The notes: generated from the sequence alone by a model not told the origin. Shown: positions 29,826 through 40,003, counted from the stretch's first letter. The stretch is DNA of 64,000 bases from Thermoanaerobaculia bacterium (GCA_035468985.1 DATISF010000028.1:38937-102936), one strand, 5' to 3'. Numbers and translations: made by a program.

Positions 29826-30575
29826 TCACGCTCCGCCGCGCGCGAGATACCCTCCGTCGATCGGATAGTACGCACCGGTGATGAAGCTGGCGCTGTCGCT
29901 GCAGAGCCAGCGCACGAGCTCGGCCACCTCTTCCGGACGCCCGAGGCGGCCGATGGGATGAAGCGCGCCGAGGGCTTTTCGCCTCTCATCCGGTAAACGG
30001 CTCAGCATCGGCGTGTCGATGTAGCCCGGTCCGACAGCATTGATGCGAATTCCGCGCGCCGCGTATTCGAGCGCCGCACTCTTCGTGAGACCGATGACGC
30101 CGTGCTTCGCCGCCACGTATCCCGCCGATCCCTCGTGCGCGGCCTGGCCGAAAATCGAGGCCATGTTGACGATCGCGCCGCCGCCCGCTTCGAGCATGCG
30201 CGGAATCTGCGCGCGCATCGCGTAAAACACGCCGGACAAATTGATCTCGATGACCCTTCGCCAGCCATTGATGCTCGTGTTGGCGACCTCGCTGACCTCA
30301 CCCCCGATCCCGGCGTTGTTGCAGGCGATGTGAAGCGCGCCGAACTGGCCGGCCGCGGCCTTCACCAGCGCTTCGTGATCTTCAGGCTTCGACGTGTCGG
30401 CGCGAACGAAGATCGCCTTTGCGTCGCCAATGAGACGGATGGTCTCCTGGCCGCCCTTCTCATCGATATCGGACACGATGACATTCGCGCCGGCTCTCGC
30501 GTATGCGAGTGCGACGGCCCGCCCGATCCCTGACGCCGCGCCGGTCACGATGGCGGTTCGATTTTGAAGATGCAT
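29826..30575 (-). CDS. SDR-family short-chain dehydrogenase/reductase
   Basis: The Rossmann motif is TAIVTGAASGIGRA. NNAG and YxxxK (YVAAKHG) catalytic motifs are present. The stop abuts the mcm stop at a TGATCA junction. Confidence 0.8.
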   Translation of the reverse strand: MHLQNRTAIVTGAASGIGRAVALAYARAGANVIVSDIDEKGGQETIRLIGDAKAIFVRADTSKPEDHEALVKAAAGQFGALHIACNNAGIGGEVSEVANTSINGWRRVIEINLSGVFYAMRAQIPRMLEAGGGAIVNMASIFGQAAHEGSAGYVAAKHGVIGLTKSAALEYAARGIRINAVGPGYIDTPMLSRLPDERRKALGALHPIGRLGRPEEVAELVRWLCSDSASFITGAYYPIDGGYLARGGA

Positions 30576-31037
30576 GAGCGATATCCTCCCGGAATCTTGA
30601 CCGATCCATTCCTTGACGCCGCAATCGAGGAAGCCGGGCGCGGCATTCGCGAGGGCGGGATCCCCATCGGCTCGGTGATCGTACATCGCGGGAAAATCAT
30701 CGGCCGTGGCCACAACCGGCGCGTGCAACGCGGCAGCGCCGTCCTTCACGGTGAGATGGACGCGCTCGAAAACGCCGGCCGCCATCCCGCGAGCGTCTAT
30801 CGCGAAGCGGTCCTCTACACGACGCTCTCGCCCTGCGCGATGTGCAGCGGCGCGATCCTCCTCTACGGAATCCCGCGCGTCGTGATCGGCGAGAACCAGA
30901 CGTTCATGGGCGAGGAAGAGCTGCTGCGCTCGCGAGGCGTGTCACTCGAGGTCGTGAACGATCAGAGGTGCGTGCAGATGATGAAGGAGTTCATCGCCGT
31001 GCACCCACACCTCTGGAGCGAGGACATCGGCGTGTGA
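30564..31037 (+). CDS. Cytidine/deoxycytidylate-deaminase-fold nucleoside or nucleobase deaminase (TadA/guanine-deaminase-like)
   Basis: The zinc motifs HGEMDALE (HxE) and PCAMCSGAI (PCxxC) are present. The 5' end overlaps the divergent SDR start. Confidence 0.7.
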   Translation: MKMHERYPPGILTDPFLDAAIEEAGRGIREGGIPIGSVIVHRGKIIGRGHNRRVQRGSAVLHGEMDALENAGRHPASVYREAVLYTTLSPCAMCSGAILLYGIPRVVIGENQTFMGEEELLRSRGVSLEVVNDQRCVQMMKEFIAVHPHLWSEDIGV

Positions 31038-31039
31038 AC

Positions 31040-34000
31040 TCACTCGGTGCGGATGATCGAGTCTCCCGTACCGTTGTCGACCGACGAGATGAACGTCAAC
31101 ACGCCGCCCGTGGCGCCGATCACTTCGACATCGACGCGAACGTTGCGCAGCGTTCCGAGCTCATCGCGCCCGGCGCCCAGGATGCTCGAGGTCAGCGGAA
31201 CGAGCAGCATCTGACCGGGAGCAAGCGAGAACTCCTTCTGGGCGGTGAGATTGGCCGTGACTTTCGTCCCTCGCCCGTCGAGGTACGACAACGTCAACCG
31301 GATTTGCGCCGGCTCGCCGAGAACTTCGACGACCCCGATGTTGTTGCGGTAAGTCGCCGGCCGCTGGGCCACGACATCGGAGCTGGTGTCATCCGTGATT
31401 CCGGCAAAGCGCTGCATCTGCCCCGGCCGCAGCGCACGTGAGACGGCAATGGTACCGACTGCGCTGCCGAACGTCGCCGCGGTCGACAGCACCAGGTTGT
31501 ACGTACGGCTCGTCACGATCAGGCTGCCGTTCGAAGGACTCACCATGATCCACCCGATCGTTCCAGGGGCGTTGAACGTGCCCGTGGCGATATCGTCGAG
31601 GAGTCTCGTCTGCCGGGGCTGGAGGGTGACGCTGCGCTCGATGGTGCCGCCGCCGTTGATGTGGTAGGTCAGCACGACGTCGTTCCGCCCGCACCGCCTC
31701 AGCGTCTGCGGAGGGCACTCGGCATTGGTGCTGGTCATCGCCACGTCGGTGCGGAAATTCGTCCCCCCTGCCCCGGCGGCGCCGCCGGCGATCGGGATGA
31801 CCACGGACTCGAACGGGTCATATCCGTACTGGCGCGTCCAATCCACGACCGACCAGTTGTCTCCGCTCGACGCGTCCACCGGAGTGGCGAAAGCATGGAA
31901 TCGCATCGTGGCGCTGTTCCCAGTCAATCGCGCCGCGACGCCGCCGGACGGAACGATGTCGTTGATCTGACGCGTCTCGTAGGCGCCGAGGTTCTCCTGC
32001 CGTGAGAAAACGACCGCGCCGTCCCCGTTCAGAATGTCGATCGTCGCGGCTCCCGCGGACCCCGCCGTCTCCTGAATGAAAAGGTTCGTGTAACTCGAAG
32101 AGTCCTTCCTCAAACCGGTCAACCAGACGGTCCCATCGAATCCCGCGGCGCGATCCGACCGGAATGCCGGAATCGAGGTCCCATACGTTCCGGCCGGATT
32201 GCTCACGTTCAGGACATTCGCGGCGATGCCAAGTTGGTCCCACTGACTCGTTCGCACCTGCAACACGCCCACCTGTCCCTCGCCGCGAAAGACGTTCTTC
32301 ACCACGTTTCCAACAAATACCGACTGCGCGACCGGCATCGAGCTGACTGCCGCAAGGAGCGGAGAGGAGGAACCTCCGATGGCGCTGTAGTACAGCTTCA
32401 GATCATCGATGGGCTTGATCCCGCTTGCATTGAGCAGGGAGAGATCGGACAGGAACAGTCCGACGCGGCCTTGAACGTTTCCTACGCCCGGCAGAAAGTA
32501 CGCAACCTGCCCTGGCGGCAACGGTGGAAACGCTGATTCACTCGGATCCACGGCCGTCGTCAAACTGATCGAGATCGTCGCGGACGTCGATCCCCCGGCG
32601 GCGGCCTTCTTGCCGAAGAGCCGGAATACGGACACCAGCGACAACGTGCCGCTCACCGTTCCGGTCAGAAGTGATGGGTCAGGGCGCTTCTTCGGATCGA
32701 CCGTGAACGTCACGATCTCGGTCTGCCCGGGCGCGACGCGCAGCAGCGCGGCCGGCGCGGAGATCCACTCCACATCAGCGCTCAGAATTCCGACGAACGA
32801 GTCGGTACCCGTATTCGTCACGGTGAAACTGCCGCTGGCTGGATCCGTCTGTGTGGTCACGAGATCAATCCGGCGGGTGGACAAGCTCAATCGCGCTCCG
32901 ACGGAGGACGATGACGCGGAAAGAAGCCGGACCGCGACCGACACCTTTCCCGCCGCTCCGGCATCAGCAATCGACTGCCCGGCGTAGGCATCCTGCGGTC
33001 TGGCCAGGCCGGCGAGCGTCACGATCTGCGACGCACCGGGGGCAAGAGTGAAGGACAAGGGTGACTGAACGAAGAAGTCTCCGACCTGACTCAATGTGAC
33101 GTTCGCCGGGGCGCCACCGATGTTCGCGATCCGATACGACGATGTGCCGCCGGCGGCGTCCGGCTCCTGAGTCAGGGTCTCGGGCAGAACGATCGCCGCG
33201 ATCTCCGCCGGACTGGCCTCCGCTGTGCTCGTCGAGAACGTCACCTCGGCCGACGGGTCGCTGAAGAGCGTGTTCGCCTGCAGGCTGTTTGCGAACGTCA
33301 CCGCTTTCGCCACCGTGAAGTATTGCGTCGCCGGACGCAGGCCCGACACCAGAACGCTCGTCGGGTCTTTCGATGGCGTCATGGCCAGCGGCACATAGGG
33401 CCCGCCACGAGAAGTGCTGACGCTGACCTGCACGCCGCCGGGACCGGCCGTATTCACCAGCCGATCCCACGTGACAGACGCGGCGAAGGCAGACGATCCC
33501 GTAACGGCCAACCCCGTCGGCGGCAGAGTCTGACTTTCCAACCCACCGGGATTGAGCGCCTTCACAAGACTCGCAACCGCGGGATCGCTGGCCCGAAGCA
33601 TGTTGTTGTCGACCCGCAGGAAACTCAGGAACGGCGCGTCCGCAAGCTCGCCGGGGATCTCACCGGTGAGCGCATTGCTCGATACGTCCAGCAGAATCAT
33701 GAAGGGAGGGCGACTGAGCTGCGGCGGAATCGATCCCGTCAGCCGATTGCTGTCGAGGAACAGCGAGAACAGATTCGGCAAATCGCCCAGCGCGGGCGGA
33801 ATCTGTCCGGTGAAGTCGTTCCCGGAAGCGGAGAATCCCCCGAGATTCGGAAAACGGGTCAGATCCGGCAGCGGTCCGGACAGACGGTTCCAGTCGCAGA
33901 AAATCAGCGACAACGTCTTCGACAAATTCGCGGGAAACTGACCGCTGAACTGATTGCCCGTAATGGAGAGCGTCTCGAGCTTCGTGAGCCGCTCGAGCGC

Positions 34001-34912
34001 CGGAAGGGGACCCGAGAATCGGTTGAATGCGATCCAGAGCTGGTGCAAGGACGTCATTCCCAGGATCTCATCCGGAATCGTGTCGTACTCATTGCCGGTC
34101 AGATCGAGCTCCTGCAGCGTGGGGATCTGTGCGAACTCCCGGGGAATCGTTCCCGCGAAATGATTGAAGTCGAATCCGATGTGTTTCAGCGGCAGCCGAG
34201 CCAGCTGATCGAACGGGATCGGTCCACTCAGATTGCAGCTGCCAAGGTTGAGGTACGTGAGGTTCGAGAGCGCGCCGATGTTCGCCAGGACATGCCTTCC
34301 CTCGAATCGACCGCTGCCACCAATGCCGAGCCATTGCAGATCTCGCAAGACCGTGAAATCGGGCAGCCTCCCCTCGAAGTGGTTGAACCTGATGTCAAGG
34401 AGCTGCAGGTTCGTCATGCCCAGCAGCGATTCGGGCAGAGAACCGCCCATGTCATTGAAGGAGAGGTCGACGTACCAGAGCGACTTGAGATTGCCGAGCT
34501 CCGCGGGCAGCGGACCGGTCAGCGCGTTGGACGTTGCATCGAGGATGGCCAGTTGAGTCAGACGGCCGATCTCCACCGGTATGTCGCCGTCGAGATCGTT
34601 GTACCGGACGGTGATCTCCGTCAGGCTGGTCAGGTTTCCGATCTGCGGAGGAAGCGAGCCGCGCAAACGATTGCTCTGAAGCCGGAGCGCAACGACGTTT
34701 GTTCGTGCGCTGTCGCAAACAACGCCTCTCCATGTGCACTCGGTTCCGGGATCGCCGAGCCAGCCGGTGTGATTACTCCAGGATGCCCCGTTGGTGCTGT
34801 TGTAAAGCGCGATCAGTGCGTCGCGCTGTACTGGCGGAACCTGCGCACAGAGAACGACGGGGCCAAGTAGCAACGCCACAGCGACACCCGAAACCAGGCG
34901 ACTGCTGCGCAT
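31040..34912 (-). CDS. Large secreted protein (1290 aa) with N-terminal plant-type leucine-rich repeats, followed by beta-rich (Ig/fibronectin-like) repeats
   Basis: A signal peptide is followed by an LRRNT-like cap (W..V.C) and at least 14 LxxLxxLxLxxNxL(T/S)GxIP repeats. The remaining roughly 800 aa are a low-complexity beta-rich region. Confidence 0.7.
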   Translation of the reverse strand: MRSSRLVSGVAVALLLGPVVLCAQVPPVQRDALIALYNSTNGASWSNHTGWLGDPGTECTWRGVVCDSARTNVVALRLQSNRLRGSLPPQIGNLTSLTEITVRYNDLDGDIPVEIGRLTQLAILDATSNALTGPLPAELGNLKSLWYVDLSFNDMGGSLPESLLGMTNLQLLDIRFNHFEGRLPDFTVLRDLQWLGIGGSGRFEGRHVLANIGALSNLTYLNLGSCNLSGPIPFDQLARLPLKHIGFDFNHFAGTIPREFAQIPTLQELDLTGNEYDTIPDEILGMTSLHQLWIAFNRFSGPLPALERLTKLETLSITGNQFSGQFPANLSKTLSLIFCDWNRLSGPLPDLTRFPNLGGFSASGNDFTGQIPPALGDLPNLFSLFLDSNRLTGSIPPQLSRPPFMILLDVSSNALTGEIPGELADAPFLSFLRVDNNMLRASDPAVASLVKALNPGGLESQTLPPTGLAVTGSSAFAASVTWDRLVNTAGPGGVQVSVSTSRGGPYVPLAMTPSKDPTSVLVSGLRPATQYFTVAKAVTFANSLQANTLFSDPSAEVTFSTSTAEASPAEIAAIVLPETLTQEPDAAGGTSSYRIANIGGAPANVTLSQVGDFFVQSPLSFTLAPGASQIVTLAGLARPQDAYAGQSIADAGAAGKVSVAVRLLSASSSSVGARLSLSTRRIDLVTTQTDPASGSFTVTNTGTDSFVGILSADVEWISAPAALLRVAPGQTEIVTFTVDPKKRPDPSLLTGTVSGTLSLVSVFRLFGKKAAAGGSTSATISISLTTAVDPSESAFPPLPPGQVAYFLPGVGNVQGRVGLFLSDLSLLNASGIKPIDDLKLYYSAIGGSSSPLLAAVSSMPVAQSVFVGNVVKNVFRGEGQVGVLQVRTSQWDQLGIAANVLNVSNPAGTYGTSIPAFRSDRAAGFDGTVWLTGLRKDSSSYTNLFIQETAGSAGAATIDILNGDGAVVFSRQENLGAYETRQINDIVPSGGVAARLTGNSATMRFHAFATPVDASSGDNWSVVDWTRQYGYDPFESVVIPIAGGAAGAGGTNFRTDVAMTSTNAECPPQTLRRCGRNDVVLTYHINGGGTIERSVTLQPRQTRLLDDIATGTFNAPGTIGWIMVSPSNGSLIVTSRTYNLVLSTAATFGSAVGTIAVSRALRPGQMQRFAGITDDTSSDVVAQRPATYRNNIGVVEVLGEPAQIRLTLSYLDGRGTKVTANLTAQKEFSLAPGQMLLVPLTSSILGAGRDELGTLRNVRVDVEVIGATGGVLTFISSVDNGTGDSIIRTE

Positions 34913-34961: not shown

Positions 34962-36095
34962 TCAATGCTTCTTCCACTCGTCCATCATGGCGACGAAATC
35001 AGGGAATAGATAGAACGAGTCGTGCGGTCCCGGCGCCGCCTCGGGGTGGTACTGCACGGCGAAGAGCGGCTCGCTGCGATGGCGGAAGCCCTCCAGCGTC
35101 TGGTCGTTCAGGTTGATGTGCGTGAACTCGACGTCCCGCTCCCGCAGCGAATCGGGATCGACCGAGAATCCGTGATTCTGTGCGGTGATCTCCACACGTC
35201 CGCTGCGCAGATCCTTCACCGGATGATTGCCGCCCCGGTGCCCGAATTTCAACTTGTACGTCTTCCCTCCAAGGGCCAGGCCGAGGAGTTGATGGCCGAG
35301 GCAGATGCCGAAGATGGGAACTTTGCCGATGAGCTGGCGGATGTTCTCCTGCGCGTACGTCACGGGCTCGGGATCGCCGGGGCCGTTCGAGAGGAGAACC
35401 CCGTCGAACTTCTGCGCGAGGATCTCGCTGGCCGGAGTCTTCGCCGGAAACACCGTCACGTCGCAGCGGTGGCCGGTGAGCTGGCGGAGGATGTCGCGCT
35501 TCACGCCGTAGTCATAGACCGCGACACGGTGTGGAGCGGCGGTCCCGGCCGCCGAAGGGCGGGCGGGAAGGCCTGCCGCTCCGCCTTCGTCGAAGGTGTA
35601 GGCTTCATTTGTCGTCACGCGATGGACGAGGTCGAGGCCGCTCATCGACGGCGCGCGACGCACTTCCGCGAGGAGATCGTCGACGGCGCGCGGCTCCGTC
35701 GTGATCATCCCGCGCATCGCCCCCTCATTCCGGATCTTGCGCGTGAGCGCACGCGTGTCGATCCCGGCGATCGCCGAGATGCGGTGATGCGTGAAGTAAT
35801 CGCCGAGCGACATCTCCGCATGCGCGCTCGACGGCTCGGCGACGGCATCGCGCACGACGAACCCGGCCACCTGCGGCGCGGCGCTCTGCGCCACGGCACG
35901 CTCCACACCGTAGTTGCCGATATGGGGGTACGTCATCGTCACGATCTGGAATCGGTACGACGGGTCGGTCGAGATCTCCTGGTATCCGGTCAGCGAGGTG
36001 TTGAAGACGACTTCGCCGATCGACGTCTCGGTCGATCCGAACGATTCGCCTTCGTAGACGGTTCCGTCCTCGAGGATGAGGCGTGCGGCGGGCAT
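34962..36095 (-). CDS. carA: Carbamoyl-phosphate synthase small (glutaminase) subunit
   Basis: The N-terminus, LEDGTVYEGESFG, is conserved. The class-I GATase triad includes PIFGICLGHQLL and HPE. The start is trimmed to MPAARLIL at 36095. Confidence 0.9.
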   Translation of the reverse strand: MPAARLILEDGTVYEGESFGSTETSIGEVVFNTSLTGYQEISTDPSYRFQIVTMTYPHIGNYGVERAVAQSAAPQVAGFVVRDAVAEPSSAHAEMSLGDYFTHHRISAIAGIDTRALTRKIRNEGAMRGMITTEPRAVDDLLAEVRRAPSMSGLDLVHRVTTNEAYTFDEGGAAGLPARPSAAGTAAPHRVAVYDYGVKRDILRQLTGHRCDVTVFPAKTPASEILAQKFDGVLLSNGPGDPEPVTYAQENIRQLIGKVPIFGICLGHQLLGLALGGKTYKLKFGHRGGNHPVKDLRSGRVEITAQNHGFSVDPDSLRERDVEFTHINLNDQTLEGFRHRSEPLFAVQYHPEAAPGPHDSFYLFPDFVAMMDEWKKH

Positions 36096-36224
36096 CGACG
36101 CATTATGCACACGTACCCCTCGCCCCGCACAGCGCGGAGAGGGTGGCGCGGAGCGCCGGGTGAGGGGCGCCCCCCCCTCATCCGGCCTTCGGCGCATCGG
36201 GGCGCAATCGAGAACGGTGCGAGA

Positions 36225-36405
36225 GCGTCGTCGTTGACGGACGACAGGACGGACGTGTCGCCGGCAATCCTTGCCGCCTGGTTGAAGGCGTTGATCGACT
36301 CCGGCTCGACGAAGATCTCGGCCTGCCCGAGCTTCACGCGGTAGTTCAGCGACAGATCGAGCGCGTTCTGGTTGTCCCAGCGACAGGTCCAGGTGAACTT
36401 CATCA
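36225..36405 (-). pseudogene. Remnant of the C-terminal about 60 residues of a TonB-dependent receptor paralog
   Basis: The translation WDNQNALDLSLNYRVKLGQAEIFVEPESINAFNQAARIAGDTSVLSSVNDDALAPF aligns to the C-terminus of the intact receptor at 37076-37400 (WDTVNALDLSINYKLRVGRAELYLEPELINAFNQAAKIAGSTTVFSAVNDSHLEPF). Identity is about 65%. The fragment has no upstream receptor body. Confidence 0.55.
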
Positions 36406-36647
36406 AGTGGCTCCTTTCGTAATCGATTGAAGGGAAGCAATCACTCGACCACTCGAACGCGCCAGTTGAATCACTGGCGAAATTCAATCGAGCCGAATGC
36501 GCACCTTGCTCGATTCAACCGTTTGCGGATGCGCGCAGCGGTTTTTGAATCGAAAAAAACGGTCGTTCACCACGCTGGCATAAACGTTTTGAGGAACGCG
36601 CGTGCCTGTGACAAAAACGCAATGGGAGCCGAAGGCAAAATCGCCCC

Positions 36648-37075: not shown

Positions 37076-40003
37076 TTAGAACCTCGCTCCGAAGGACACG
37101 CGATACGTGCGCATCAGCGCGTAGTCGGAAGCGTTACGGGCCTGGCCGAATGTCGAACTGAACCGATAGTTCTTTCCAAGGACCGGCTTCTCCGTAAAGG
37201 GATTGAAGGGCTCGAGATGGCTGTCGTTGACCGCCGAGAAGACTGTCGTGCTGCCGGCGATCTTCGCAGCCTGGTTGAATGCGTTGATCAGCTCGGGCTC
37301 CAGGTACAGCTCCGCGCGGCCGACTCTCAGCTTGTAGTTGATCGAGAGGTCGAGCGCGTTGACCGTGTCCCAGCGGTGATTGCCGCGCTGGCCGTCCAGG
37401 TAATAGTTCACCGACGACGGGGCACCGGCGTAGTAGCTGGTCACGCTCTCAGGGAGGTACTGGCTGGGATCGATCTGCAGAAGAGCCGAGTACGGCGTAC
37501 CCGTGTCGATGCGCTCCAGGGCGCTGAACACGAAGTTGCCGACGTGGGTGGGCACGGCCCACGTCGCCCATGCGCGGACCTTGTTCGTCTCATCCGACGG
37601 CAGGAAGCCGACCGGGTTGTTCTCCGCGAAGGCCTTGTACTCCGGATACTGGAAGATGGTCTCGGGGACCGGGCCGACGCCGGGCGTCTCCGCCGTGACG
37701 TTGCCGCGGGTCTTGGCGTAGGTGTAGTTGGCGCCGAACTGCACGTGCTGAGTGAACGGATAGGCGGCCTGGATGCTCGCCGCACGGTAGGTGCGCTCGA
37801 GGTTCTGGTCGCTGGTGAAAATCTGCTGGATGTCGTTCGGATTGCCGAACTGGTCCACGACCTGGCCCGTGGACTGGTCGACGCGGTTCGCGTAGAAATT
37901 GCCCCAGTTGCGGTTGATCAGGTCGAGGCGGACGAAGCCCTTTCCGATCTGCGAGCCGGCGCCCAACGTGACCTCGTTGACGTCCGGTGATTTCAACGAT
38001 CCGAGGATCTTGGTGTTGAGGCCCGGGATGACGCCGAAGAACGGCTGCACGCCGTTCACGCCACCCTGAGACTGGAACCAGTTGTACATGGTCTGGAACG
38101 CCGTCACCGTGTCGACGCCGCAGTTCGCGGTGCCCGGCGTGCAGCCCGGCGCGTTGATGGCCGGTCCGCGATACCGATAGAAGATGTAGGCCGGGTTGCC
38201 GGCGCCGGTCGCGCCGTTGCCGACCGTCTCGGCGATCTTCGCCGCATACTTGCTGTAGCTGGCGTTGAAACGCAGGCGGCCGTTGCCAAGCACGTCATAC
38301 GTGGCGCCGAGCCGCGGCTCGAACGTGGAGTCGTTCGCGCGCGTGAAGCCCGACGCGTCCTTGCCGTTGTTCTTGTCGTAGCGGAGTCCGAGCGTGAAGC
38401 CCCAGTGCGTGTTCAGGTCCCACTTGTCGTTCACGTAAAGCGAACGGGTGACGAAGTTCGAGCCTTTGGTCAGCTCGAAGATCGGGAACCACACGATGAT
38501 GTCGCGGTTCGGACTGATGACCGGGTGGAACGTGTCATTCGGACCGGAAACCGGCGTCTGCTCGCCGAACGTGTACACGCCGAAGTTGGAGCCCGACTGA
38601 TAGTTGTTCGAAATGTGCTGCTCGGCCCAATCCTGGTAGCCGGCGCTGACGCTGTGTGTGCCGAGGCTCTTGGACGCGAGGTAGTAGGACAGCTTCAGGT
38701 CCCAGGTCTTGTTGTTGCGCTGTTCCGATCCGCAGTCGGAGCAGAACACCGGCGCGCCGAAGAACTGACCTTCGTTGAGGTCGAGACCCCAGCTGCCGTG
38801 CGCGAAGTCGGCGGTCGGGCCGCCGCCGTCGACGAACGCGAAGAACTTCTTCGACCAGTTCGCCTCGACGAGAACGCTGTCGGTGAGGATGCCGCTGTAG
38901 TGCGCGGTCTTGAAGCTGTTCGGGGTCTCGCGCGACGGATCGATGCTGGAGAACTCGTAGCAGCCGAACAAGCAGACCCCCGTCTGCGGGTTCTTGATGT
39001 CGAGGTACGACACGACCACGCTGTGCTTCGGCGTGATCTGGCCGGTCAGCTTGCCTTCATAGCGCGTGTTCTTCGAAACGGCCTGGAACTTGACGTTCGA
39101 GTTCGTCAGGAAGTTGTCGGTGCCGATCTTTGCCGAACGGGCCGCGCCGAAGAACCACAGGCGGTCGCGCACGATGCGTCCGCCGAGGGTTGCTTCATAC
39201 ACGCTGTCGATGTGATCGGTCGGGTCGGGCTGATGCGGATCGGGAGTCTTGGTCGTCCAGTTGTTATTGGTCAGGGAGTCGCGGATCGAGCCGCTGAACT
39301 CGTTGCCGCCCGACTTCGTGATCGCGTTGACCACGCCGCCGGTGAAGCGGCCGTACTCGGCCGAGATCGCGCCGGTGAGCACCGTCTGCTCCTGGATCGC
39401 GTCCTCGATGAACAGATTGTGGATCTGGCTCCGGAGGTTTTCGTTGATGACCGCGCCGTTGACCATGTACAGATTCTCGTGAGCCGGTGCGCCGGAGATC
39501 ACCAGCTGCCCGGGTGTGGGCGTGTTGGTGTTCACGTTCGGCGCGATCGACGCCTGCGCCTGGAACGTGCGTCCCACCGGAAGGTCCTCGACGAGCTCCT
39601 GCTTCACGTTCGTCTGGATCTCCTGCGTTTCCAGCACGGCCGGAGCGCTGGCGGTGACGGTGATCGCCTCGGCCACCGCCGAGAGCTTCAACTCCGCGTC
39701 CGCGCGCCCGGTCTGGCCGAGGCCGACCACCGCGTGGCGCGTCACGGGTTGCATGCTCTCCATTTCGAATTTGACCGTGAAGTCGCCCGGCGGAACCGCG
39801 CCGAAAATGAAATTGCCGTTCACGTCGGTGTAGGCCGTACGCGTCCCCTGCATCGCCGGCGAGGAGATGGTGACGGTGACACCGGGGAGAGCGCTCCCCT
39901 CCGTGACGACGTGGCCGGTGAGACTCGACGTGGTCTGTGCCCACGCCGCTGTGCTGCATAAGAGCAGCAGGACTGCTAAACAGGTTCGACTGAACTTCAT
40001 CAA
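37076..40003 (-). CDS. TonB-dependent outer-membrane receptor with an N-terminal carboxypeptidase-regulatory-like domain
   Basis: A signal peptide is followed by a CarbopepD_reg pattern (GHVVTEGSALPGVTVTIS...TDVNGNFIFGAVPPGDF). A plug region follows, then the long beta-barrel. The C-terminus ends in an aromatic residue (...VSFGARF). Confidence 0.8.
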   Translation of the reverse strand: MMKFSRTCLAVLLLLCSTAAWAQTTSSLTGHVVTEGSALPGVTVTISSPAMQGTRTAYTDVNGNFIFGAVPPGDFTVKFEMESMQPVTRHAVVGLGQTGRADAELKLSAVAEAITVTASAPAVLETQEIQTNVKQELVEDLPVGRTFQAQASIAPNVNTNTPTPGQLVISGAPAHENLYMVNGAVINENLRSQIHNLFIEDAIQEQTVLTGAISAEYGRFTGGVVNAITKSGGNEFSGSIRDSLTNNNWTTKTPDPHQPDPTDHIDSVYEATLGGRIVRDRLWFFGAARSAKIGTDNFLTNSNVKFQAVSKNTRYEGKLTGQITPKHSVVVSYLDIKNPQTGVCLFGCYEFSSIDPSRETPNSFKTAHYSGILTDSVLVEANWSKKFFAFVDGGGPTADFAHGSWGLDLNEGQFFGAPVFCSDCGSEQRNNKTWDLKLSYYLASKSLGTHSVSAGYQDWAEQHISNNYQSGSNFGVYTFGEQTPVSGPNDTFHPVISPNRDIIVWFPIFELTKGSNFVTRSLYVNDKWDLNTHWGFTLGLRYDKNNGKDASGFTRANDSTFEPRLGATYDVLGNGRLRFNASYSKYAAKIAETVGNGATGAGNPAYIFYRYRGPAINAPGCTPGTANCGVDTVTAFQTMYNWFQSQGGVNGVQPFFGVIPGLNTKILGSLKSPDVNEVTLGAGSQIGKGFVRLDLINRNWGNFYANRVDQSTGQVVDQFGNPNDIQQIFTSDQNLERTYRAASIQAAYPFTQHVQFGANYTYAKTRGNVTAETPGVGPVPETIFQYPEYKAFAENNPVGFLPSDETNKVRAWATWAVPTHVGNFVFSALERIDTGTPYSALLQIDPSQYLPESVTSYYAGAPSSVNYYLDGQRGNHRWDTVNALDLSINYKLRVGRAELYLEPELINAFNQAAKIAGSTTVFSAVNDSHLEPFNPFTEKPVLGKNYRFSSTFGQARNASDYALMRTYRVSFGARF

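What the first reader, a model, noticed from the sequence alone, without database searches (positions are those of the whole stretch)
31040..34912. 1290-aa secreted protein with plant receptor-kinase-type LRR ectodomain architecture
The N-terminal 450 aa read like a plant LRR-RLK ectodomain. There is an LRRNT_2 cap (WSNHTGWLGDPGTECTWRGVVCD), then at least 14 24-residue LxxLxxLxLxxNxLTGxIP repeats. The rest is a Ser/Thr/Ala/Gly-rich beta region without a membrane anchor or kinase. Such plant-specific-type LRRs are uncommon in bacteria. When present they are often adhesins or effectors of plant- or soil-associated bacteria.
Basis: partly seen in the sequence, partly recalled or inferred. Interest (0 to 1): 0.5.

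Follow-up and report, generated by a model that had tools for sequence, protein, structure and literature searches.

The report
Bacterial secreted protein with plant-type LRRs
A soil-type Acidobacteria (Thermoanaerobaculia) genome encodes a secreted 1290-aa protein whose head is a genuine plant-receptor-style leucine-rich-repeat domain. That head is one of many interchangeable heads carried on a large, undescribed C-terminal module shared by thousands of secreted proteins of this lineage, so it looks like a native binding protein and not a gene recently borrowed from plants.

Summary
The ORF at 31040-34912 (-) encodes 1290 aa: a Sec-type signal peptide, a two-cysteine LRRNT_2-like cap, and 16 LRRs of 22-26 aa. 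Thirteen of the 16 carry the plant-specific hallmark G13-x-[ILVFM]15-P16. The best PDB sequence matches are all plant LRR receptor-kinase ectodomains (GSO1 1e-108, FLS2 2e-106). There is no TM helix or kinase.

The module defines a large family of 4949 clusters at 50% identity. It always sits at the extreme C-terminus of signal-peptide proteins, and most of these have non-LRR heads. Every named source is Thermoanaerobaculia or Acidobacteriota. Composition is native (GC3 z = -0.9) and the neighbours are housekeeping genes.

The LRR type is right. "Uncommon", "plant-associated effector" and recent HGT are not supported. The most likely function is an extracellular or surface binding protein, with the LRR head as ligand binder and the C-terminal module as a shared attachment or assembly chassis. 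This function is inferred, not shown.

The parts
31040..34912 (-). Whole ORF, 1290 aa plus stop codon
   Evidence: An identical protein is in public data as NCBI 'hypothetical protein VLV78_07680 [Thermoanaerobaculia bacterium]'. The same gene call appears on ENA and Logan contigs.
34841..34912 (-). Sec-type signal peptide, residues 1-24 (MRSSR + hydrophobic core + CAQ). The cleavage site is not computed.
   Evidence: This is the only hydrophobic segment of the protein, with KD 19-aa windows above 1.6 starting at residues 3-11. Read from the sequence; no signal-peptide predictor was available.
34712..34834 (-). LRRNT_2-like N-terminal cap, residues 27-67: helix RDALIALYNSTNG, a Trp, then C59-x-W-x-G-V-x-C66
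   Evidence: Pfam LRRNT_2 E 0.0016, 19.1 bits, below GA 20.7. Aligned to the GSO1 and FLS2 N-caps. Motif present in 92 of 120 homologues.
33557..34696 (-). 16 plant-specific-class LRR units, residues 73-452
33227..33529 (-). FN3 domain, about residues 462-562
32909..33211 (-). Ig-like beta-sandwich 2, about residues 568-668 (ASH/PapD/HYDIN-like)
32543..32899 (-). Ig-like beta-sandwich 3, about residues 672-790. Its C-terminal linker is of lower confidence.
   Evidence: Weak BACON_2 hit at residues 675-742. AF2 model.
31820..32521 (-). C-terminal module, unit 1 (subdomains A1 and B1), residues 798-1031. Ends in the motif TPVDASSGDNWSVVDW.
   Evidence: AF2 pLDDT 95.1, pTM 0.93. hhalign of unit 1 against unit 2: probability 99.2%, E 2.9e-19. 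Subdomain comparisons.
31043..31819 (-). C-terminal module, unit 2 (subdomains A2 and B2), residues 1032-1290. Ends in SSVDNGTGDSIIRTE at the protein's C-terminus.
   Evidence: The module sits at the extreme C-terminus in 101 of 120 homologues and in the hits listed from the 1.84-billion-protein library.

Best explanation
The gene encodes a Sec-exported extracellular or cell-surface binding protein of a Thermoanaerobaculia (Acidobacteriota) bacterium, built in three parts.

(1) Head. A disulfide-capped solenoid of 16 plant-specific-class LRRs. As in other LRR proteins, its concave beta-sheet is the likely ligand-binding surface. The ligand is unknown.

(2) Stalk. One FN3 domain and two ASH/PapD-like Ig domains, acting as a spacer.

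(3) Base. A compact 480-aa module made of four beta-sandwich subdomains (A1-B1-A2-B2, from an internal duplication) with a TM1070/ASRT-like fold.

The stalk-plus-base chassis is shared by a very large lineage-specific family of secreted proteins with many different N-terminal heads. The LRR block is therefore an exchangeable recognition head. I infer that the base supplies the common function, most likely attachment to the cell envelope or a surface glycan, or self-assembly.

Shown here: the domain anatomy, the LRR class, the family structure, native composition, and the absence of TM helix, kinase and known sorting signals.

Inferred: export beyond the inner membrane, ligand binding by the LRR, and the anchoring or glycan-binding role of the base.
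For: - LRR class and cap: with the consensus from PMC2946307.
- Signal peptide is the only hydrophobic segment.
- Base structure: AF2 pLDDT 95.1 and pTM 0.93 for 500 aa, which indicates a rigid compact unit. Internal duplication: 99.2%, E 2.9e-19. A1~A2 96.5%, B1~B2 98.2%, A2~B2 68.7%.
- Family: the module is C-terminal in 101 of 120 homologues. LRR-less members exist. The profile search found 4949 clusters at E<=1e-3 and 808 at E<=1e-30, with the module reaching the C-terminus in nearly all listed hits. Of 133 new representatives, 116 have non-LRR N-termini, most starting with a signal-peptide-like sequence.
- Paralogy: at least two members per genome in SMAG_U11627 (L002, L006). LRR and LRR-less forms co-exist in Ca. 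Gilichinskyi gelida (L001 and P0054).
- Repeat number varies from 15 to 45 across the family, median about 25, against 16 here.
- Native composition.
Against: - No experiment bears on localisation or ligand.
- A diderm bacterium needs a route across the outer membrane. None is evident: the neighbours are housekeeping genes and no partner gene is conserved across family loci.
- The base has no sequence match to any anchoring, sorting or carbohydrate-binding family. Its link to sugar binding rests on fold similarity of one subdomain to a family whose own sugar-binding role is only a computational prediction.
- A 480-aa module is much larger than known C-terminal sorting domains.
- The protein could equally stay in the periplasm.
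Confidence: 0.55

Rival explanations
1. Plant-derived or plant-directed factor. The LRR block was acquired from a plant, or mimics plant receptors. The protein would then act as an effector or decoy in a plant-associated lifestyle, for example by sequestering plant peptide ligands or binding plant cell-wall proteins.
For: - The best solved-structure sequence matches are exclusively plant LRR-RLK, LRR-RLP and PGIP ectodomains, cap included.
- NCBIfam gives partial hits to the Xanthomonas effectors XopAC, XopAE and XopL.
- Plant-bacteria HGT of plant-specific LRRs has been proposed in the literature (Miyashita et al. 2013, cited in PMC9471246).
- Related MAG names (SMAG_*) suggest soil sources.
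Against: - GC and GC3 are native, z = -0.92.
- More than 100 diverged full-length homologues, all Thermoanaerobaculia or Acidobacteriota where named, including a MAG named Ca. Gilichinskyi gelida. Any transfer would be ancient.
- Xop model scores are 7-16% of their cut-offs and reflect shared repeats only.
- The Sec signal peptide argues against T3SS delivery (inference).
- The plant-type C-terminal Cys-pair cap is absent; there are no Cys between residues 339 and 1066.
- The LRR is only one of many heads on the same chassis.
- Similarity among idealised repeats is consensus-driven and cannot establish direction or recency of transfer.
Confidence: 0.08
2. The conserved C-terminal module is the active part, such as a lectin-type toxin, an enzyme or a matrix/S-layer-like self-assembling unit. 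The variable heads, LRR included, would only target or regulate it. The protein would then be a released exoprotein or matrix component and not a cell-anchored adhesin.
For: - The module is the most widely conserved part and is compact.
- Many nearly invariant charged or aromatic residues are repeated in both units: (Q/V)ETxG and D-x-x-(S/T)-G-D.
- Stand-alone module proteins of about 450-500 aa exist, e.g. P0123 and P0145 on contigs of 7.8 kb and 22 kb.
- A weak, non-significant profile match to 'putative surface layer protein' 8okv, E 0.28.
Against: - No catalytic family or motif is recognised.
- Fold neighbours are non-enzymatic sandwiches.
- The 8okv hit is at chance level.
- Some of the short 'stand-alone' proteins may be fragments of genes cut at contig ends.
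Confidence: 0.25
3. Periplasmic or envelope sensor. An LRR ectodomain-like receptor that has lost, or never had, a membrane-spanning signalling part, and that works with a separate transducer.
For: The architecture resembles a receptor ectodomain. No outer-membrane export route was identified.
Against: - No TM segment.
- No conserved signalling partner in the neighbourhoods.
- Large paralogous families with variable heads and variable repeat number are typical of surface or binding proteins, not of dedicated sensors.
Confidence: 0.07

Closest known systems
Plant LRR receptor-kinase / receptor-like-protein ectodomains (GSO1, FLS2, RGFR, PEPR1, BRI1; PGIP)
   Same: Same LRR class: 24-aa LxxLxLxxNxLxGxIP units. 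Same kind of N-cap, a helix followed by CxWxGVxC. They are the best PDB sequence matches, 1e-108 to 1e-27.
   Different: No island domain, no Cys-pair C-cap, no TM helix and no kinase. Here the LRR is followed by FN3, Ig domains and a bacterial-specific module. The host is a bacterium.
Bacterial LRR surface adhesins (Listeria internalins; Leptospira LIC LRR proteins, e.g. LIC11098 4u08 and LIC_11051)
   Same: Same design logic: signal peptide, LRR head, Ig-like spacer, then a C-terminal attachment part. LIC11098 (4u08, 3e-26) and the LIC_11051 model are matched through the LRRs.
   Different: The internalin comparison is from memory and was not tested here: internalins use 22-aa SDS22-like LRRs and LPXTG, GW or other known anchors. 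Here the LRRs are plant-specific class and the C-terminal part is an undescribed 480-aa module. The NCBIfam score for LIC_11051 is 43 against a cut-off of 1000.
Xanthomonas T3SS LRR effectors XopL, XopAC/AvrAC, XopAE
   Same: Bacterial proteins with plant-specific-like LRRs, giving partial NCBIfam hits of 33-74 bits.
   Different: Scores are far below the cut-offs of 450-600. The effector domains of those proteins (from memory, not tested: XopL E3 ligase, XopAC Fic) are absent, and Pfam finds no such domain. A Sec signal peptide is present here, whereas those proteins are delivered by the T3SS.
ASRT/TM1070 (ASRAH) beta-sandwich superfamily (Pfam DUF1362/ASRT; De Souza, Iyer & Aravind 2009)
   Different: No sequence-level match to Pfam or PDB, even with a profile. 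Four subdomains are fused into one rigid module. The conserved Trp of ASRAH strand 1 is not evident.
C-terminal sorting/translocation domains on cargo with variable N-termini (T9SS CTD, autotransporter beta-barrel)
   Same: Same family logic: a conserved domain at the extreme C-terminus of many otherwise unrelated signal-peptide proteins.
   Different: No Pfam hit to Por_Secre_tail or autotransporter models. The module is a 480-aa stack of sandwiches, not an ~90-aa CTD or a membrane barrel. The C-terminal residues are RTE, not aromatic.

Membership tests
Plant-specific (PS) LRR class (Kobe & Kajava / Matsushima classification) | Repeat length 23-25 residues | tested here: met
   16 units of 22-26 aa; 14 of them are 23-25 aa and 10 are exactly 24 aa. 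Definition from PMC2946307.
Plant-specific (PS) LRR class (Kobe & Kajava / Matsushima classification) | Variable segment consensus L(t/s)GxIPxxLGxLxx after LxxLxLxxN | tested here: met
   G13 in 13 of 16, I/L15 in 12 of 16, P16 in 14 of 16, and the full G13-x-[ILVFM]15-P16 pattern in 13 of 16. The top 40 PDB matches are plant PS-LRR ectodomains.
Pfam LRRNT_2 (PF08263) N-terminal cap | Score at or above the gathering threshold of 20.7 bits | tested here: not met
   19.1 bits, E 0.0016, residues 29-67. The family member in L008 scores 26.5 bits. Only a few family members carry PF08263 in the precomputed lists.
Pfam LRRNT_2 (PF08263) N-terminal cap | Helix followed by the CxWxGVxC cysteine pair directly before the first LRR | tested here: met
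   C59-T-W-R-G-V-V-C66 lies 6 residues before LRR1. It aligns to the GSO1 and FLS2 caps. The motif is present in 92 of 120 homologues.
Plant LRR receptor kinase / receptor-like protein | Single-pass TM helix after the ectodomain, with or without a cytoplasmic kinase | tested here: not met
   No hydrophobic segment beyond the signal peptide. No Pkinase hit.
Plant LRR receptor kinase / receptor-like protein | Cys-pair C-terminal cap of the LRR domain | tested here: not met
   No Cys between residues 339 and 1066. The last LRR runs into ...LRASDPAVASLVKALNPGG... and then FN3.
Xanthomonas T3 effectors XopL / XopAC / XopAE (NCBIfam NF041351, NF041381, NF041400) | Whole-protein score above the curated cut-off (500 / 450 / 600 bits) | tested here: not met
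   32.5, 73.8 and 71.1 bits, over LRR stretches only.
ASRT/ASRAH superfamily (Pfam ASRT/DUF1362) | Sequence-profile match to the family | tested here: not met
   No Pfam hit at E<=10 for the C-terminal 506 aa or at E<=1 for 13 family members. A profile search against PDB does not recover 1nc7 or 2ii7.
ASRT/ASRAH superfamily (Pfam ASRT/DUF1362) | Eight-stranded beta-sandwich fold of TM1070 | tested here: met
ASRT/ASRAH superfamily (Pfam ASRT/DUF1362) | Conserved Trp at the start of strand 1 and conserved Asn at the end of strand 2 (PMC2739507) | tested here: inconclusive
   Nearly invariant N271 in FRTDxxIxNxG and the equivalent SDLSxxNxxG in unit 1 may correspond to the Asn. No conserved Trp was seen at the start of strand 1. 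No structure-based alignment was available.
T9SS C-terminal domain / autotransporter translocator | Pfam Por_Secre_tail or autotransporter beta-barrel match; barrel fold | tested here: not met
Thermoanaerobaculia 'C-terminal 480-aa module' family (defined here) | Full-length match to the module profile, located at the extreme C-terminus, behind a signal-peptide protein | tested here: met
   688.8 bits, profile positions 1-480 matched to residues 805-1290 and in the window ORF. 101 of 120 LRR homologues share it.

The most novel reading that the evidence does not exclude
The conserved C-terminal chassis (Ig stalk plus the 480-aa four-sandwich module) would be a previously undescribed, lineage-specific surface-display or export/anchoring system of Thermoanaerobaculia. 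It would carry thousands of interchangeable heads, and capped plant-class LRR solenoids would be one major head type. Deeply diversified in a bacterial class, these LRRs would then bear on where the 'plant-specific' LRR ectodomain originally came from.
Probability: 0.3. Interest if true: 0.6.

Novelty: new variant of a known kind. Interest (0 to 1): 0.4.

Why it matters
The LRR finding by itself is modest. Plant-specific-class LRRs in bacteria have been reported before, and LRR-headed bacterial surface proteins are a familiar design. Two things add value.

First, the 480-aa C-terminal module is a very large family (about 4900 clusters at 50% identity) with a confident structure but no entry in Pfam, NCBIfam or the PDB by sequence. 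It is always C-terminal on secreted proteins with highly varied heads. Finding out what it binds or how it assembles would annotate thousands of 'hypothetical' proteins in a widespread but barely cultured soil and sediment lineage.

Second, a bacterial class holds more than 100 diverged, capped plant-specific LRR proteins with 15-45 repeats. This is useful material for asking whether the 'plant-specific' LRR ectodomain and its LRRNT_2 cap are really plant inventions.

Tried and rejected
- Recent HGT. GC is 0.629 against a window range of 0.61-0.66. GC3 is 0.779 against 0.816 +/- 0.041 for 42 window ORFs, z = -0.92. Synonymous codon distance is mildly raised at 0.148, but the reference set included the comparison genes. 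There is no convincing signal.
- Functional partner from context. The window neighbours are carA, a TonB-dependent-receptor-like protein, a MacB-type permease, an M14 peptidase, a deaminase, an SDR and methylmalonyl-CoA mutase. The neighbourhoods of P0030 and P0054 are unrelated. Only L003, L004, L005 and L007 are syntenic with each other, around an LRR-less paralog. There are no tandem paralogs.
- Promoter and terminator scan: nothing above shuffles near the gene.
- Defence system: PADLOC gave no hit.
- Sequence-level identification of the C-terminal module failed in every library: Pfam, NCBIfam, PDB with a single sequence, PDB with a profile, and 13 members against Pfam.
- Foldseek against afdb50 was not available on the machine.
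- The first profile search of the representative library failed because long members pushed the profile over 1200 positions. It was repeated with short members only.
- Autotransporter or T9SS-CTD reading of the C-terminal module: rejected on fold and on the absence of Pfam hits.
- A plant-versus-bacteria LRR phylogeny was not attempted. Repeat number varies from 15 to 45 units and similarity is consensus-driven, so positional homology is unreliable. Plant sequences could not be pulled into the session.
- Literature. There are no papers combining Thermoanaerobaculia with leucine-rich repeats and nothing on bacterial LRRNT_2. Miyashita et al. 2013 could only be confirmed as a citation, not read.


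Full report
**1. Observation**

The ORF at 31040..34912 on the minus strand is real. It starts with ATG and encodes 1290 aa. An identical protein is in public databases as [quoted passage not shown]. The same gene boundaries are called on independent ENA and Logan assemblies.

Pfam finds strong LRR signal: LRR_1 1.9e-24, LRR_4 1.1e-17, LRR_14 2e-17 and LRR_8 2.8e-16. Registering the repeats on LxxLxLxxN gives 16 units over residues 73-452. They are 22-26 aa long and ten are exactly 24 aa. Asn is at position 9 in 14 of 16, Gly at position 13 in 13 of 16 and Pro at position 16 in 14 of 16. The full G13-x-[ILVFM]15-P16 signature occurs in 13 of 16. That is the published plant-specific (PS) class consensus LxxLxLxxNxL(t/s)GxIPxxLGxLxx of 23-25 residues (PMC2946307).

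A phmmer search of all PDB sequences gives only plant LRR-RLK and LRR-RLP ectodomains among its best 40 hits: GSO1 1e-108, FLS2 2e-106, RGFR, PEPR1, ERL, TDR, HAESA, BRI1 and PSKR. All matches lie within residues 43-445. These E-values are inflated by repeat-on-repeat matching, but the class assignment is clear.

The N-cap scores 19.1 bits against LRRNT_2 (E 0.0016), just below Pfam's gathering score of 20.7. It does have the helix and the C59-x-W-x-G-V-x-C66 pair, which HMMER aligns with the caps of GSO1 and FLS2. The motif occurs in 92 of the 120 best homologues, and a family member (L008) passes the Pfam threshold at 26.5 bits.

The only hydrophobic stretch is the N-terminal signal-peptide-like segment. 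There is no TM helix and no kinase.

**2. What the rest of the protein is**

Residues 456-1290 have no PDB sequence relative. In Pfam they give only weak fn3 and BACON_2 hits, and the last 506 aa hit nothing even at E<=10.

Residues 791-1290 fold with very high confidence into one compact all-beta unit (pLDDT 95.1, pTM 0.93). Profile-profile comparison shows that this unit is an internal tandem duplication: halves 1-245 against 246-500 give probability 99.2%, E 2.9e-19. Each half holds two sandwich subdomains. A1~A2 scores 96.5% and B1~B2 98.2%, and A and B types are weakly related to each other (A2~B2 68.7%, E 4.6e-5). Both halves end in a D-x-x-(S/T)-G-D motif, and the second of these lies at the protein's C-terminus (...SSVDNGTGDSIIRTE).

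TM1070 and ASRT define the ASRAH superfamily. De Souza, Iyer and Aravind predicted from context that it binds small molecules, probably sugars, and it includes secreted, repeated and cell-surface versions (PMC2739507). At sequence level the module matches neither Pfam ASRT nor any other Pfam, NCBIfam or PDB entry, even when searched as a profile or member by member.

**3. Family and evolutionary context**

The whole-protein search returns more than 100 full-length homologues with 94-100% coverage, 30-45% identity and 1250-1730 aa. All that carry a source name are Thermoanaerobaculia or Acidobacteriota. In 101 of the 120 best hits the C-terminal 500 aa are conserved and end at the protein's last residue.

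Searching with the module alone finds LRR-less proteins of 450-875 aa. In reference genomes, seven of eight loci encode 950-1140-aa proteins that share only the stalk and the module. All eight loci are in Thermoanaerobaculia MAGs.

A profile of the module searched against 1.84 billion representative proteins finds 4949 clusters at E<=1e-3, 2796 at E<=1e-10 and 808 at E<=1e-30. In nearly all listed hits the module reaches the C-terminus. Of 133 newly found representatives only 17 have three or more PS-LRR motifs. The other 116 have other N-terminal regions, most beginning with a signal-peptide-like sequence and mostly without Pfam domains; a few have PKD or Ig domains. Named clusters are again Thermoanaerobaculia.

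The family is paralogous within genomes. There are two loci in SMAG_U11627, and both an LRR form (P0054) and an LRR-less form (L001) in Ca. Gilichinskyi gelida. It is not syntenic with the window's neighbours. LRR number varies from about 15 to 45, with a median near 25, against 16 here. Identity to the query is similar in head, stalk and base at about 34-36%.

The window neighbours are housekeeping genes: carA 49 nt upstream on the same strand, a TonB-dependent-receptor-like protein, MacB, an M14 peptidase, a convergent deaminase, an SDR and methylmalonyl-CoA mutase. Base composition is native. GC is 0.629, and GC3 is 0.779 against 0.816 +/- 0.041 for 42 ORFs in the window, z = -0.92. PS-type LRRs are not rare in this data. 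More than 5900 proteins match at E<=1e-5. The 19 non-family hits among the top 120 are ~2000-aa proteins with 22-44 PS motifs in unrelated architectures: a T9SS CTD, a subtilase, Big_2/invasin domains and multiple capped blocks.

**4. Most likely mechanism**

Shown here: a signal peptide, a capped PS-LRR solenoid, an FN3 and two Ig domains, and a compact conserved base, with no TM helix, kinase, known anchor or sorting signal.

Inferred: the protein is exported. The LRR head binds an unknown ligand on its concave face, as is the general rule for LRR domains. The FN3 and Ig domains act as a spacer. The base supplies the function common to the whole family. Three things point to what that function is:
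- the base sits at the extreme C-terminus of thousands of secreted proteins with exchangeable heads;
- it is rigid and compact;
- it has an ASRT/TM1070-like fold.

I therefore consider attachment to the cell envelope or a surface glycan, or self-assembly, the most likely role. This makes the design functionally analogous to internalin-type and Leptospira LRR adhesins without being a member of those families. Confidence is about 0.55 for the overall reading. It is higher for "LRR head is the binding module on a family chassis" and lower for "base is an anchor".

The main weakness is that no route across the outer membrane and no partner gene could be identified. The sugar-binding link is fold-level only, and it rests on a prediction that has itself not been tested experimentally.

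**5. Rivals**

(a) Plant-derived or plant-directed effector (0.08). It is supported only by the class resemblance and by sub-threshold Xop hits. It is opposed by native composition, deep lineage-wide diversification, the Sec signal, the absence of a plant-type C-cap, and the modular head-swapping of the family.

(b) The base is the active part, as toxin, enzyme or matrix/S-layer unit (0.25). This cannot be excluded. Conserved charged motifs and possible stand-alone modules favour it. The lack of any catalytic signature argues against it, and the surface-layer-protein match is at chance level (E 0.28).

(c) Periplasmic sensor (0.07). There is no TM segment and no conserved signalling partner.

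**6. Comparison with the known, and novelty**

PS-class LRRs in bacteria and their possible exchange with plants have been described before (Miyashita et al. 2013, confirmed only as a citation). LRR-headed bacterial surface proteins are also a known kind. The protein fails the membership tests for plant RLK/RLP (no TM, kinase or C-cap), for the Xop effectors (scores at 7-16% of cut-offs), and for T9SS or autotransporter cargo. It meets the PS-LRR class definition. It meets the ASRAH fold but not the ASRAH sequence criteria.

What is new is the combination with a large, undescribed, lineage-restricted C-terminal module family. I rate it "new variant of a known kind", with interest 0.4. The LRR observation is correct but not very surprising. 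The uncharacterised module family is the more valuable lead.

**7. Limits**

No signal-peptide predictor, AFDB search, plant sequence set or whole-genome paralog count was available. Taxonomic statements rest on the minority of hits that carry names. The subdomain that matches TM1070 was not identified. No function was tested experimentally.

Noticed in passing
window 31043-32521 (-), residues 798-1290: The C-terminal 480-aa module is a very large family (4949 clusters at 50% identity, 808 at E<=1e-30) with a confident AF2 structure. It has no Pfam, NCBIfam or PDB sequence match. It always sits at the extreme C-terminus of signal-peptide proteins with very varied N-terminal heads.
   Followed up: yes
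L001 15991-17127 (-): A 379-aa ORF, 6.5 kb from the family gene in Ca. Gilichinskyi gelida, matches only part of the module profile (positions 230-349, roughly one A-type subdomain, E 1e-10). The sandwich unit therefore also occurs outside the four-subdomain module.
   Followed up: no
proteins P0045, P0047, P0109, P0110 (one search hits): These ~1800-2000-aa metagenomic proteins lack the C-terminal module. They carry five separate CxWxGVxC caps each and 24-37 PS-type LRR motifs, which means several capped plant-type LRR blocks in tandem. Other non-family hits combine PS-LRRs with a T9SS CTD (P0062), a subtilase (P0069) or Big_2/invasin domains (P0094, P0115).
   Followed up: partly
window 34962-36440 (-): The mechanical carA ORF (492 aa, TTG start) is over-extended at its N-terminus. 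The CPSase domain starts at residue 121 and the public gene call is 377 aa. carA ends 49 nt upstream of the LRR gene on the same strand, so co-transcription is possible but was not tested.
   Followed up: partly
window 31037-31040: The convergent deaminase gene (30564-31037, +) and the LRR gene (stop codon at 31040-31042, -) are separated by only 2 bp, with no terminator-like hairpin between them.
   Followed up: no
L003, L004, L005, L007 (about 8 kb either side of the family gene): Around one LRR-less paralog these four Thermoanaerobaculia MAGs share several flanking genes. Individual family members can therefore be stable orthologs, even though the family as a whole is non-syntenic.
   Followed up: no
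window 37076-40003 (-): A 975-aa protein combines CarboxypepD_reg, Plug and an outer-membrane beta-barrel, as in a TonB-dependent-receptor-like outer-membrane protein. It lies two genes upstream of the LRR gene. No link to the LRR gene was found in other genomes.
   Followed up: no
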